From Escherichia phage vB_EcoM_G4498, in the sequence record NC_054918.1: a DNA stretch of 64,000 bases, one strand, 5' to 3'. The translations under genes were made by a program, and so were the position numbers. Below the pieces are notes generated by a model. The model saw only the letters and a list, made by a program, of their open reading frames with translations, was not told the origin of the DNA and made no database searches. Below, piece by piece: positions 25,106 through 26,854 of the stretch (its first letter is position 1; every line of letters starts with the position of its first letter).

Positions 25106-25438
25106 TTATTTTACTACTTTCCAATGCTGCATGTCAAGTTTACCAACTTTTTTCATCTTCTCAATTAAGCGTTCGGCACGTTGGCGAGCTGTAACATAAT
25201 ACCATTCACCTAATTCATTTTGTTCAATTTTTCCAACGATTACTGTATTCAATTCATAAATCCAACCAGTAAAGAAATTATGAACTTGAATTGTAAAGGT
25301 GAAATCTGTTCCCATACCTTCTGTTGTTTCTACTTCAATAATATCACCTTCAACTGCCGTTAAGAACCACATAGTTTCATCATATTTACCATTGAAGCAT
25401 TTAGTTTTAACTGCAGCGTTCAGATTAATCGTTTTCAT
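25106..25438 (-). CDS. Hypothetical protein (30.x series)
   Basis: 110-aa ORF; AAGGAG SD; early promoter upstream. Confidence 0.55.
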   Translation of the reverse strand: MKTINLNAAVKTKCFNGKYDETMWFLTAVEGDIIEVETTEGMGTDFTFTIQVHNFFTGWIYELNTVIVGKIEQNELGEWYYVTARQRAERLIEKMKKVGKLDMQHWKVVK

Positions 25439-25465
25439 TTTATTCTCCTTTGTTTGTGTAAGATA

Positions 25466-25495
25466 ATACTATCACAAAGGAACCATACTGTAAAC
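25466..25495 (-). promoter_or_regulatory. T4-type early promoter
   Basis: Minus strand GTTTAC, 18 nt, TAGTAT. Confidence 0.55.
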
Positions 25496-25520
25496 AACTT
25501 TATGCAATCTTTGGAAAATA

Positions 25521-25545
25521 AAAAGGACTCCCGAAGGAGTCCTCA
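25521..25545 (-). terminator. Strong intrinsic terminator
   Basis: GGACTCCTTCGGGAGTCC followed by TTTTTATTTT on minus strand. Confidence 0.7.
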
Positions 25546-25547
25546 AC

Positions 25548-25724
25548 TTATGCTTTCTGCTTACCAAAACGAGAAGCATCATCTCGAAGAACCGCACGTG
25601 CTCGGCGCATGATCTTCTCAACAGTTTGATTGATACGAGAGTTCGACCCACGCTTGTAGCCAGCGCGTTTAGAATCACCAACTTTCTTTTCAACTGCTTT
25701 CTTTGCTTTAGCTTGTTTTGCCAT
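25548..25724 (-). CDS. Small Lys/Arg-rich protein (58 aa)
   Basis: ATG at 25724 (MAKQAKAKKAVEKKVGDSKRAGYKRG...) with AAGAGAA SD; the ORF-track start further upstream is non-ATG. Confidence 0.5.
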   Translation of the reverse strand: MAKQAKAKKAVEKKVGDSKRAGYKRGSNSRINQTVEKIMRRARAVLRDDASRFGKQKA

Positions 25725-26122
25725 TATAAATTCTCTTTTAAATGAAAATGCAGGACTTATTGGCATTGCCTGCGCAAGCCCTCAAGGGGAACATAGGTTT
25801 TTTGATATTTAACGACCAGGATAACCATAAACCCGTCATCATACCTTATAGCTCTTATCTGTTGCACACCGTTAGCTTAAAGGTTCCGGGTTCGATTTCT
25901 CGAGGATAAGATATATACTGATGGATATATAGGCCTTGAGGCGTACTCCCGATTGGCCATCACCTCGGGGTAGCATGCACTTGCCGCTATAAGAATAACA
26001 TTCAAGAGGTACACCGTAAAACTGCCGGGGTCTTAAAACTATAATGATTCGCAAATCATTAATCAGACAGTTCGACGGCTCCTCGTTTTAACTTCACACT
26101 AAGGCAGTGAATCTCCAATAAA

Positions 26123-26371
26123 TTACTTCAGTGTTACCACAAAGTGACGAACTGCTTTTCGTGCAGCAGAAGCCAGAGGCTTAGCATATTTAAGTTCATC
26201 TTTTTCCTGAAGCTCAGCAGCTAATGCAGTTTGAGCAGGATTCAGATGTTTGAAATAACGCAGGATTTCAAGAGCTTCGGCTTCAACATCAATAGATGCG
26301 CCATAGTTTTCGTGACCATTATTCCATGCGTTTCGTTGCAGTTCAAGAGCGTGTTGTAATTGTTTAATCAT
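26123..26371 (-). CDS. rIII: rIII lysis-inhibition accessory protein
   Basis: 82-aa ORF MIKQLQHALELQRNAWNNGHENYG... adjacent to gene 31. Confidence 0.85.
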   Translation of the reverse strand: MIKQLQHALELQRNAWNNGHENYGASIDVEAEALEILRYFKHLNPAQTALAAELQEKDELKYAKPLASAARKAVRHFVVTLK

Positions 26372-26518
26372 TTAAAAATTCTCGTTAGAGATTAAAACTC
26401 GGTAGTCACGTTCTTCTGAATTTCATCTTCTTTCGACAGATCTCTCAGTTGTAGACTACCACATAGAATTGTTCGGTTAACTTATTATTCCGACACCAAA
26501 TTCATATTATTATTTATA

Positions 26519-26854
26519 TCACTTATAAAGACACGGAATAGCTTTATAGTGACAGGTAACGAATTTTTGTTTAATTTCTTTTGGCTGCTTAAGACCCAGA
26601 GCTACAAAAGGGTGTGGAACGTTTCGAATTTGACCAACTGGAAGAGAAGTCAAATCACCAACTTCACAGAAACCTTCAGGAACATCAGGACCGACAGAGT
26701 GAACTACACACAGTTCAGGAACTTCACCTTGAACACGTTTACCGATAATAAGTCCTGATTCTGTAACTTCTTCATCACCGGCTTGTGCAGGTTCAGAAAC
26801 TAAAATAACATATTCACCGACAGCACGAATTGGTAGCTGTTGTACTTCAGACAT
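26519..26854 (-). CDS. 31: gp31 co-chaperonin (GroES functional analogue)
   Basis: 111-aa [33 protein letters not shown]...; matches T4 gp31. Confidence 0.9.

What the first reader, a model, noticed from the sequence alone, without database searches (positions are those of the whole stretch)
25725..26122. ORF-poor ~400-nt segment between rIII and the 30.x cluster
T-even genomes are densely coding, yet here there is no convincing ORF on either strand. The minus-strand transcript from rIII would run through it. It contains several short inverted repeats (for example AATGATTTGCGAATCATT) and a GGTTCGAT-like motif that does not fold into a tRNA. It ends at a strongly terminated small basic-protein gene. 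It may encode a small RNA, a long structured leader, or a decayed gene.
Basis: seen in the sequence. Interest (0 to 1): 0.45.

Follow-up and report, generated by a model that had tools for sequence, protein, structure and literature searches.

The report
Unannotated folded RNA in T4-like phages
The "empty" spacer between the phage genes rIII and 30.9 holds a roughly 150-base RNA with a complex, evolutionarily maintained fold, found in about 400 sequenced T4-like phages but missing from T4, T2 and T6; it matches no catalogued RNA family and its job is unknown.

Summary
Window 25725-26122 is a real non-coding spacer inside the rIII-30.9 co-transcript of a Tequatrovirus (100% identical to vB_EcoM_G29).

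It is not featureless. Compared with T4, the window carries a ~153-bp insert (about 25844-25996). The insert is a self-contained structured RNA on the minus (gene-sense) strand, 25845-25993.
- A covariance model and pair counts on 24 distinct sequences give 97.7% paired cells, against 28-40% in register-shifted controls.
- 28 of 48 pairs show compensatory changes.
- There are 50 G-U cells and no A-C cells, which fixes the strand.

The fold is a perfect four-way junction closed by P1. Two hairpin loops are mutually complementary and covary in six cognate versions. About 60 nucleotides are invariant.

The core is 93-95% identical between E. coli and Klebsiella or Edwardsiella phages whose rIII DNA is only 72-76% identical. 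It also occurs at a second locus (downstream of uvsY in JC221 and Olmo) and in one non-T4-like phage. It was not found in bacterial genomes or plasmids.

Rfam 15 gives no hit at E<=10, ARAGORN finds no tRNA, and I found no paper on it.

Function is unknown. My best guess is an autonomous, partner-binding RNA module. Riboswitch and ribozyme remain open rivals. The rest of the spacer is a mosaic of smaller conserved hairpins.

The parts
25845..25993 (-). Structured RNA element, from the P1 5' strand to the P1 3' strand. It is a perfect four-way junction (P1, P2 arm, P3, P4 domain) and is absent from T4, T2 and T6.
   Evidence: The T4 alignment shows a ~153-bp insert. The CM R1 hit at 25847-25989 scores 174 bits. 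P1 is 8-9 bp here.
25986..25993 (-). P1 5' strand (CUUAUAGC). It pairs with 25845-25852 (GCUAUAAG).
   Evidence: P1 is 4-11 bp long in most lineages, with one internal mismatch in two Karamvirus copies, and its sequence differs in every lineage. All four modelled pairs covary.
25974..25985 (-). Invariant GGCAAG(U/G)GCAUG. It forms the P2 5' strand (GGC) and the 5' side of a conserved internal loop.
   Evidence: Invariant columns in A3 and A4.
25957..25962 (-). Loop L2 (UGAUGG) at the tip of the P2 arm. It is complementary to loop L3.
   Evidence: There are six cognate loop pairs with 6-7 Watson-Crick bp each, against 2-5 for non-cognate pairs. Four of the six pairs covary (helix 4). This helix was not part of the CM.
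25912..25931 (-). P3 hairpin: a 7-bp stem with the 6-nt loop L3 (CCAUCA, 25919-25924).
   Evidence: Three stem pairs covary. A U-G closing pair is present in 20 of 24 sequences.
25892..25903 (-). P5 hairpin (UCGA-GAAA-UCGA). Its sequence and loop are variable.
   Evidence: All four pairs covary (helix 7). The loop is GAAA, GUAA or UAAA, or non-GNRA in PS2, PKM.Lu.22.1 and JC221.
25859..25891 (-). Near-invariant 3' core, ACCCGGA(A/C)CC...GCUAACGGUGUGCAACAG. It comprises P6 plus the junction strand and is the presumed functional centre.
   Evidence: The 18-mer is invariant in all rIII-locus copies and in JC221. The one P6 change, in Olmo, is compensatory: C-G to U-A.
26006..26084 (-). Module C, a long irregular hairpin shared with T4.
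   Evidence: MFE fold. Variant sequences with compensatory changes: GCCGU/ACGGU to GCCAU/AUGGU, AACUGUC/GGCAGUU to AAUUGUC/GACAAUU, and AAUGAUU/AAUCAUU to AUCGAUU/AAUCGAU. These were read by eye and not formally counted.
26093..26118 (-). A GGAG motif (26113-26116) 6 nt after the rIII stop, followed by the small module B hairpin with a conserved loop (U(A/G)CCUUAGU).
   Evidence: Sequence comparison; fold. Reading GGAG as a RegB-type site rests on my own knowledge of T4 RegB specificity and was not tested.
25804..25839 (-). Module D hairpin (loop ..GGUUAUCC) plus the conserved UAAAUAUC tail. It lies downstream of the element here but upstream of it in Klebsiella phages.
   Evidence: module order differs between genera; coordinates.
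25750..25789 (-). Module E (CCCCUUGAGGG hairpin, 25779-25789) and module F (GCAGG...CCUGC hairpin, 25750-25773), just ahead of the 30.9 ribosome-binding site.
   Evidence: These hairpins recur in many genera, sometimes upstream of the element (EcS1, EcL8g).
26123..26371 (-). rIII gene (82 aa), the upstream cistron of the transcript that carries the RNA.
25548..25724 (-). Gene 30.9 (58-aa basic protein, PHROG 1427, function unknown), followed by an intrinsic terminator at 25523-25544.

Best explanation
**Shown**
- The spacer contains an autonomously folding ~150-nt RNA domain read from the gene-sense (minus) strand. It is transcribed as part of the rIII-30.9 message.
- Its two ends pair (P1) and close a perfect four-way junction.
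- One arm (P2, P2b, P2a) and the neighbouring hairpin (P3) carry fully complementary 6-7-nt loops that covary.
- The fourth arm (P4) encloses a variable hairpin (P5) and a near-invariant region of about 35 nt (P6 plus a junction strand).

**Inferred**
- The module works as a unit in its own right, most likely as a stable RNA that binds one invariant partner: a host or phage protein, another RNA, or a small ligand. The contact surface would be the invariant 3' domain and the P2 internal loop.
- It is probably not a regulator tied to one particular downstream gene.
- P1 insulates the fold from the surrounding mRNA. Flanking AU-rich single strands could allow it to be cut out.
- The loop-loop pairing either locks the two arms together or joins two copies head-to-head. 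The second reading is favoured by the unequal arm lengths (about 15 bp plus an internal loop, against 7 bp).

The existence of a selected RNA structure is near certain (about 0.95). The functional reading is a best guess; the confidence given below refers to that reading.
For: **Structure**
- 97.7% of 1150 cells are paired, against 28-40% when partners are slid by 1-3 columns.
- 28 of 48 pairs have changes on both sides, against 6-10 in the slid controls.
- 0 of 500 shuffles reach the observed values.
- P2b, the kissing helix and the outward extension of P1 were not in the covariance model, so they are independent of the model-fitted alignment.

**Strand**
- 50 G-U cells against 0 A-C cells.

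**Selection**
- The core is 93-95% identical between the window and Klebsiella RCIP0032 or Edwardsiella PEi26. In the same pairs, rIII DNA is 72-76% identical and gene 31 DNA 69-74%.

**Autonomy**
- The module occurs in three unrelated contexts, always in the sense of the neighbouring genes:
  - between rIII and 30.9, in at least eleven named T4-like genera plus unclassified phages;
  - downstream of uvsY and uvsY.-2, in JC221 and Olmo;
  - between a PHROG-6599 protein and a sigma factor, in the Grimontviridae phage PKM.Lu.22.1.
- Its order relative to the other spacer hairpins differs between genera.
- It has no promoter or terminator of its own.

**Phage-specific**
- No copy in 185,579 species genomes, in E. 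coli complete genomes or in plasmids.
Against: - There is no expression, processing or binding data for any phage that carries the element.
- The partner is unidentified, and no neighbouring gene co-occurs with the RNA.
- The element is dispensable: T4, T2, T6 and about 60% of relatives lack it.
- The single-sequence folding energy is unremarkable.
- A closing P1 with an invariant core is also the hallmark of riboswitch aptamers and of ribozymes.
- The dimer idea rests only on a helix-length argument.
- The sequences are closely related (effective number 1.23 in the CM). Several covariations may therefore be single events inherited by many rows.
Confidence: 0.45

Rival explanations
1. It is a riboswitch-like cis regulator. 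The invariant core would be an aptamer for a small molecule, and P1 formation would control expression of the downstream cistron (30.9 in this window).
For: - The architecture is typical of an aptamer: a closing P1, a multi-helix junction, a long-range loop-loop contact and about 60 invariant unpaired nucleotides.
- The element lies upstream of 30.9 and in the same sense.
Against: - The downstream genes are unrelated in the three contexts: 30.9, a sigma factor, and a gap with only a 39-aa ORF.
- About 120 nt containing other independently shuffling hairpins separate P1 from the 30.9 start.
- No terminator or Shine-Dalgarno-sequestering partner of P1 is conserved.
- In Karamvirus the element starts about 11 nt after the rIII stop, and in other genera different modules follow it.
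- No Rfam riboswitch model hits, even at E<=10.
Confidence: 0.15
2. It is a new self-cleaving ribozyme or a structured RNA-processing module that cuts the rIII-30.9 polycistronic RNA.
For: - Its distribution is patchy, cassette-like, intergenic and in the sense orientation. From my own knowledge, this matches how small ribozymes are distributed in phages.
- It has a highly conserved core with variable peripheral helices and a tertiary loop-loop contact.
- A fragment of the T4-type spacer turns up inside a tRNA cluster of another phage, that is, among RNAs that are processed.
Against: - No match to any Rfam ribozyme model.
- At about 150 nt it is larger than most self-cleaving classes.
- No conserved candidate cleavage dinucleotide could be identified.
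- Nothing here tests catalysis.
Confidence: 0.15
3. It is a passive mRNA stability or insulator element. It would be one more of the stable hairpins in this spacer that protect the rIII 3' end or the 30.9 5' end from host RNases.
For: - The spacer is a mosaic of conserved hairpins (modules B-F, X) that shuffle between genera.
- The element occupies the same slot as a simple about 48-nt hairpin (module X), or as nothing at all, in close relatives.
Against: - Nuclease protection needs stable helices, not about 60 invariant unpaired nucleotides, a four-way junction and covarying kissing loops.
- The element's conservation exceeds that of the neighbouring coding DNA.
Confidence: 0.12
4. It is a DNA-level element, for example a recombination or homing site, or single-stranded DNA hairpins of a mobile cassette. 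The RNA fold would then be incidental.
For: - There is presence/absence polymorphism at one site, with clean boundaries.
- The element occurs at a second locus and in another phage family.
Against: - 50 G-U pairs against 0 A-C make the structure strand-specific, as expected for RNA or a single strand but not for duplex DNA.
- There are no terminal inverted repeats beyond P1, no target-site duplication and no adjacent endonuclease or transposase gene.
Confidence: 0.04
5. It is a decayed protein gene or a short unannotated ORF (the reader's third option, and the reading implied by the GenBank 'hypothetical protein' annotations).
For: - ORFs of 45-60 aa overlap the region.
- G29_00224 is annotated across it.
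Against: - Stops occur in all six frames of the core in every lineage examined, and no open frame spans the whole element in any lineage.
- There is no Pfam or PHROG hit.
- Substitutions come as compensatory pairs in helices, not in a codon pattern.
Confidence: 0.02
6. It is a degenerate tRNA or tRNA-like relic.
For: - It has a four-way junction.
- A GGTTCGAT-like string lies on the + strand.
- A T4-type spacer fragment sits inside a tRNA cluster of another phage.
Against: - ARAGORN finds nothing and no tRNA clan hit appears in Rfam.
- The T-loop-like string is on the non-RNA strand.
- The junction has no linker nucleotides, and arm lengths and loops are unlike those of a tRNA.
- The CM does not hit T4 tRNAs or rnaC/rnaD.
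Confidence: 0.03

Closest known systems
Orphan structured phage or bacterial RNAs that assemble through kissing loops (ROOL, GOLLD, OLE; cryo-EM preprint 10.1101/2024.12.08.627333)
   Same: - It is phage-borne, has an ornate covariation-supported fold and has no known function.
- Loop-loop complementarity might be intermolecular.
- It lies in a locus with a link to tRNA genes: a fragment of the T4-type spacer sits inside another phage's tRNA cluster.
   Different: - It is four to five times smaller (about 150 nt against about 580-800 nt).
- There is no sequence or CM similarity.
- It is found in virulent enterobacterial T4-like phages.
- Oligomerisation is untested here.
phi29 pRNA (packaging RNA)
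   Same: Two loops of one RNA are mutually complementary and covary between related phages.
   Different: - pRNA has a three-way junction and 4-nt interlocking loops, and belongs to the phi29-type packaging motor.
- This RNA has a four-way junction and 6-7-nt loops.
- It sits in phages whose packaging needs no RNA, and it is dispensable (T4 lacks it).
- There is no Rfam hit.
Lysine riboswitch (L box), and more generally the purine and cobalamin riboswitch aptamers
   Same: - P1 closes a multi-helix junction.
- A long-range kissing interaction joins the loops of two neighbouring arms. In the lysine riboswitch this is a 6-bp L2-L3 kiss, with P2 bent back; that detail is from my own knowledge.
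- There are many invariant junction nucleotides.
   Different: - It has a four-way, not a five-way, junction.
- There is no CM match.
- There is no conserved expression platform, and the downstream genes are unrelated.
T4 stable RNAs rnaC and rnaD (species 1 and 2)
   Same: They are phage-encoded RNAs of about 120-140 nt with unknown function, made by processing of a longer transcript.
   Different: - They lie in a different locus (the tRNA cluster).
- There is no similarity by CM (best 7 bits) or by blastn-short.

Membership tests
Any Rfam 15 family (4227 covariance models) | Score against the family covariance model | tested here: not met
   There is no hit in the gap at E<=10 on 25300-26600, and none at all on 25835-26005 with the laxest filters.
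tRNA / tmRNA | Cloverleaf with D, anticodon and T arms, detectable by ARAGORN | tested here: not met
   ARAGORN finds 0 genes in 25300-26600. The GGTTCGAT-like string lies on the strand opposite the RNA.
Riboswitch (generic) | Conserved aptamer closed by P1, with invariant junction nucleotides | tested here: met
Riboswitch (generic) | Consistent association with functionally related downstream genes | tested here: not met
   The downstream gene is 30.9 in the window and a sigma factor in PKM.Lu.22.1. In JC221 it is an about 230-nt gap followed by a 39-aa ORF.
Riboswitch (generic) | Expression platform (terminator/antiterminator or SD sequestration) coupled to P1 | tested here: inconclusive
   There is no terminator-like site after the element. 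The sequences following P1 differ between genera. Alternative pairings were not searched exhaustively.
Riboswitch (generic) | Specific ligand binding | not testable with these tools
   Needs in-line probing or ITC.
Known self-cleaving ribozyme classes (hammerhead, twister, twister-sister, pistol, hatchet, HDV-like, hairpin, VS, glmS) | Class-specific conserved core, as captured by the Rfam models | tested here: not met
   no hit.
Self-cleaving ribozyme (new class) | Site-specific self-scission | not testable with these tools
   Needs an in vitro transcription and cleavage assay.
phi29-type pRNA | Mutually complementary, covarying loops | tested here: met
   Six cognate loop pairs; four of six pairs covary.
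phi29-type pRNA | Three-way junction core and similarity to the pRNA model | tested here: not met
   The core is a four-way junction and there is no Rfam hit.
T4 rnaC / rnaD stable RNAs | Sequence and structure similarity to the T4 species 1 and 2 RNAs | tested here: not met
   CM R1 on the T4 tRNA region with filters off gives a best score of 7.2 bits, and nothing on rnaC or rnaD. blastn-short finds only 7-9-mers.
Protein-coding gene | An open frame conserved across lineages, or a family match | tested here: not met

The most novel reading that the evidence does not exclude
This would be a new class of functional RNA specific to virulent enterobacterial phages. The other version is a new ribozyme or riboswitch class. 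Either way, it would be the first complex-fold regulatory or catalytic RNA described in the T4 group beyond tRNAs, introns and rnaC/rnaD.
Probability: 0.3. Interest if true: 0.85.

Novelty: new variant of a known kind. Interest (0 to 1): 0.62.

Why it matters
T4-like phages are among the best-studied viruses and are widely used in phage therapy against E. coli, Klebsiella, Enterobacter and Shigella. Even so, about 400 deposited genomes carry this unannotated RNA, or mis-annotate it as 'hypothetical protein'. Its conservation exceeds that of the neighbouring genes.

The classical models T4, T2 and T6 lack it, which explains why it was missed. It also gives ready-made natural controls in which the element is present or absent.

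A compact fold of about 150 nt, with a four-way junction, covarying kissing loops and a near-invariant core of about 35 nt, is the signature of an RNA that binds something specific. Identifying that partner could reveal a new RNA-based layer of phage-host interaction. It could also yield a new ribozyme or aptamer class, and a small naturally dimerising RNA scaffold.

More generally, the result shows that the rIII-30.9 spacer is an exchangeable 'RNA cassette' locus rather than junk.

Tried and rejected
- **Known RNA family.** Two Rfam E-value scans gave nothing in the gap. The only weak hits (Atu_C8, Phe_leader) fall on the 30.9 terminator hairpin and are chance.
- **tRNA or tRNA relic.** ARAGORN was negative.
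- **Relation to T4 rnaC/rnaD.** The CM with filters off and blastn-short were both negative.
- **Resemblance to E. coli RNase P RNA.** From memory I noticed shared short words (GUGCAACAGA, GAACCCGG, CAAGGCC). They are not collinear, are about what chance predicts for words of this length, and are unsupported by Rfam. I dropped the idea.
- **Resemblance to SAM-I.** The similarities (CUUAUC...ACCCGGCAACC...GAUAAGA) are not supported by the pairing pattern or by Rfam. I dropped this too.
- **Host or plasmid homologues.** There is none in E. coli complete genomes. Plasmids give only 26-30-nt chance hits. Two pattern scans of GTDB genomes found nothing.
- **More distant relatives, 5'-domain pattern.** The scan of IMG/VR returned 9 extra loci. 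All are high-GC coding chance matches with no CM hit.
- **More distant relatives, metagenomes.** The scan returned only near-identical T4-like copies.
- **Extra pseudoknots.** A search for covariation among unpaired columns was uninformative, because the conserved loops do not vary.
- **Literature.** Searches by gene names, by topic and by the sequence itself found nothing on this element. The large catalogue of viral structured-RNA candidates (PMC10690425) does not discuss it in its text; I did not search its supplementary tables.
- **Thermodynamic signal.** The z-scores, -1.0 to -2.0, are not significant on their own.

Full report
**What the window is**

Over 25700-26150 the window is 100% identical to Escherichia phage vB_EcoM_G29, a Tequatrovirus. 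All genes here run on the minus strand:
- gene 31, at 26519-26854;
- rIII, at 26123-26371;
- 30.9, at 25548-25724 in its 58-aa form (72 aa if started at 25766);
- the 30.8 and 30.7 cluster beyond that.

A late-promoter TATAAATA lies at 26511-26518 upstream of rIII. No terminator-like site lies between rIII and 30.9. A strong hairpin with a U-run follows 30.9 at 25523-25544.

**Checking the observation**

- The spacer is real and non-coding. Only ORFs of 60 aa or less overlap it.
- The one ORF annotated in GenBank (25872-26054) has no Pfam or PHROG match.
- The quoted inverted repeat exists at 26043-26060.
- The GGTTCGAT-like string exists on the + strand. ARAGORN finds no tRNA, and Rfam 15 finds nothing in the gap even at E<=10.
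- T4 itself has an unannotated 244-nt gap at this position.

**The key finding**

Aligned with T4, the window carries a ~153-bp insert at about 25844-25996. About 140 nt of that insert are 95% identical to a stretch in Klebsiella T4-like phages. That stretch lies in the same rIII-30.9 gap, while the surrounding spacer does not align.

The insert is present in 409 phage records. About 990 records match the spacer region as a whole, so roughly 40% carry it. In IMG/VR, 15 of 40 rIII loci have it. Carriers span Tequatrovirus, the JS10/VR5/VR26 group, Dhakavirus, Karamvirus, the Klebsiella T4-like phages (including Marfavirus), Kanagawavirus, Muldoonvirus and Kagamiyamavirus. T4, T2 and T6 lack it.

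Divergent copies lie at a second locus, downstream of uvsY and uvsY.-2, in Yersinia phage JC221 and Klebsiella phage Olmo (Pseudotevenvirus). One copy sits in a 76-kb Grimontviridae phage, PKM.Lu.22.1. There it lies between a PHROG-6599 protein and a sigma-factor gene.

In every case the element is intergenic and in the sense of its neighbours. No copy was found in 185,579 bacterial and archaeal species genomes, in E. coli complete genomes or in plasmids.

**It is a structured RNA read from the minus strand**

RNAalifold on 18 sequences predicted 38 pairs, 19 of them with compensatory changes. I built a covariance model, R1. It finds exactly one copy in the window, at 25847-25989 on the minus strand, with 174 bits.

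On a 25-sequence alignment (24 distinct rows) I refined the structure by eye. I added helix P2b and a loop-loop helix, and then counted pairs:
- 97.7% of 1150 cells are paired, against 28-40% when the 3' partners are slid by 1-3 columns.
- 28 of 48 pairs have changes on both sides, against 6-10 in the slid controls.
- No shuffle out of 500 reaches the observed values.

There are 50 G-U cells and no A-C cells. The structure therefore belongs to the gene-sense strand.

All six reading frames of the core contain stops in every lineage examined. The core is 93-95% identical between the window and Klebsiella RCIP0032 or Edwardsiella PEi26. In the same pairs rIII DNA is 72-76% identical and gene 31 DNA 69-74%. 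The RNA is thus more conserved than the flanking coding sequence.

**Anatomy (RNA sense; window coordinates run downwards)**

- **P1.** CUUAUAGC (25993-25986) pairs with GCUAUAAG (25852-25845). P1 is 4-11 bp long in most lineages, with one internal mismatch in two Karamvirus copies, and its sequence is different in each lineage. It closes a four-way junction that has no linker nucleotides.
- **Arm 2.** This arm consists of P2 (GGC/GCC), a conserved internal loop with invariant GGCAAG-GCAUG and CCU, P2b, P2a, a 2-3-bp tip and loop L2 (UGAUGG, 25962-25957).
- **Arm 3.** This is a 7-bp hairpin, P3, with loop L3 (CCAUCA, 25924-25919).
- **The L2-L3 pairing.** L2 and L3 are perfectly complementary. 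The pairing is kept in six different versions:
  - UGAUGG / CCAUCA
  - CGAUGG / CCAUCG
  - CUAUGG / CCAUAG
  - CAAUGA / UCAUUG
  - UUGUAUU / AAUACAA
  - UGCAUU / AAUGCA

  Cognate loops give 6-7 Watson-Crick pairs. Non-cognate combinations give 2-5. This helix was not in the model, so it is independent evidence.
- **Arm 4.** P4 (7 bp, 6 of them covarying) encloses a variable hairpin P5 (all 4 pairs covary; the loop is often GAAA but is not conserved). It also encloses the near-invariant stretch ACCCGGA(A/C)CC...GCUAACGGUGUGCAACAG (25891-25859). The one change in helix P6, seen in Olmo, is compensatory.

**How it probably works**

Two things are shown: an autonomously folding module, and strong selection on about 60 unpaired nucleotides. 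The rest is inferred.
- The module keeps its fold in three unrelated gene contexts.
- It changes position relative to the other spacer hairpins between genera.
- It has no promoter or terminator of its own.

For these reasons I think it acts as a unit in its own right, probably as a stable RNA that binds one conserved partner through the invariant 3' domain and the P2 internal loop. I think it less likely to be a regulator of one downstream gene.

In a stacked four-way junction, the loops of neighbouring arms can meet only if the arm lengths match. Here one arm is about 15 bp plus an internal loop, and the other is 7 bp. A head-to-head C2 dimer, in which L2 of one copy pairs with L3 of the other and vice versa, fits that geometry naturally. 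An intramolecular kiss would need a sharp bend in the P2 arm. This is a geometric argument only.

I put the existence of a selected RNA structure at about 0.95 and the 'autonomous partner-binding RNA' reading at about 0.45. The rivals are:

| Rival explanation | Confidence |
|---|---|
| Riboswitch | 0.15 |
| New self-cleaving or processing RNA | 0.15 |
| Passive stability element | 0.12 |
| DNA-level element | 0.04 |
| tRNA relic | 0.03 |
| Decayed gene | 0.02 |

**The rest of the spacer**

The remaining sequence is a mosaic of smaller conserved hairpins. In RNA order they are:
1. A GGAG motif 6 nt after the rIII stop, followed by a small hairpin with a conserved loop (module B, 26093-26118).
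2. A long irregular hairpin (module C, 26006-26084).
3. The element itself.
4. Module D with the UAAAUAUC tail (25804-25839).
5. Modules E and F (25750-25789), ahead of the 30.9 ribosome-binding site.

In close relatives the slot between C and D holds one of three things: nothing (T4), the element, or an about 48-nt hairpin with loop AAAAGGUUA (module X). In other genera the modules occur in other orders. The locus behaves like an exchangeable RNA-cassette site.

**Comparison with what is known**

There is no Rfam family match. There is no similarity to the T4 stable RNAs rnaC and rnaD. I could find no paper on this element.

In architecture it recalls aptamers with a closing P1 and a kissing pair of neighbouring arms, such as the lysine and purine riboswitches. 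In its self-complementary, covarying loops it recalls phi29 pRNA and the self-assembling ROOL and GOLLD RNAs. It fails the defining tests of each of these families (see the membership table).

I rate it a new family within the known broad kind of orphan structured phage RNA. I do not call it categorically new, because the function is unknown.

**Limits**

- The sequences are closely related (effective number 1.23), so several covariations may be single events shared by many rows.
- The alignment used for counting was fitted to the model for the helices that the model contained.
- The thermodynamic z-scores are weak.
- Nothing here tests expression, processing, catalysis, ligand binding or oligomerisation.

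Noticed in passing
L081 and L082, about 1329-1640 (IMG/VR contigs of 97 kb and 149.5 kb): A T4-type spacer fragment sits inside a cluster of 12 tRNA genes, in permuted order. It runs from module C through D, E and F to the 30.9 ribosome-binding site and ATG. That ATG is fused in frame to about the last 40 codons of rIII, followed by TAA and TTTATTGGAGATT, which run straight into a tRNA-Gln gene. It looks like a captured recombination product linking this spacer to tRNA cassettes.
   Followed up: partly
window, about 25996/25844 junction; L043, L045, L049-L051, L054, L056, L058 and L060: The same slot between modules C and D holds an about 48-nt hairpin ('module X') in many relatives, instead of the 149-nt RNA. 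It has the conserved loop AAAAGGUUA and a covarying stem (CAGA/UCUG to CAGC/GCUG). It may be a second small structured element.
   Followed up: partly
window 26093-26111; L007 about 1150-1185; L008 about 1150-1190: The small 'module B' hairpin has the conserved loop U(A/G)CCUUAGU and a stem that covaries (CAC/GUG to CGC/GCG). It lies upstream of the RNA in the JS10/VR5/VR26 group and in Klebsiella phages, but immediately downstream of it in JC221 and PKM.Lu.22.1. The two modules therefore tend to travel together.
   Followed up: no
window 25872-26054 (minus): GenBank record MK327940 annotates a 60-aa 'hypothetical protein' (G29_00224) across the RNA. Many other records do the same. It has no family hit and is almost certainly a mis-annotation.
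   Followed up: yes
window 25548-25766 (minus): The 30.9 start is annotated inconsistently. It is 58 aa (MAKQ...) in the T4 reference, in T2 and in G29. It is 72 aa (MPISPAF...) in T6 and in a T4 clone record. The extension is not conserved in other genera, which favours the 58-aa form.
   Followed up: partly
window 26113-26116 (minus): A GGAG motif lies 6 nt after the rIII stop codon. GGAG is the cleavage motif of T4 RegB endoribonuclease (my own knowledge). A paper reports that RIII modulates RegB activation through ribosomal protein S1 (PMC9409239). The JS10/VR5/VR26-group phages have GGUG here instead.
   Followed up: no
window 25509-25592 (minus): There is a weak Rfam hit to the Rhizobiales sRNA Atu_C8 (28.6 bits against a gathering score of 50; E = 0.003). 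It falls on the 30.9 3' end and terminator hairpin. It is driven by the terminator stem-loop and is most likely chance.
   Followed up: no
L007 1189-1338 (minus); L085 1500-1647 (plus): JC221 and Olmo carry the RNA at a second locus, downstream of uvsY and uvsY.-2. Both records annotate short 'hypothetical proteins' across it.
   Followed up: partly
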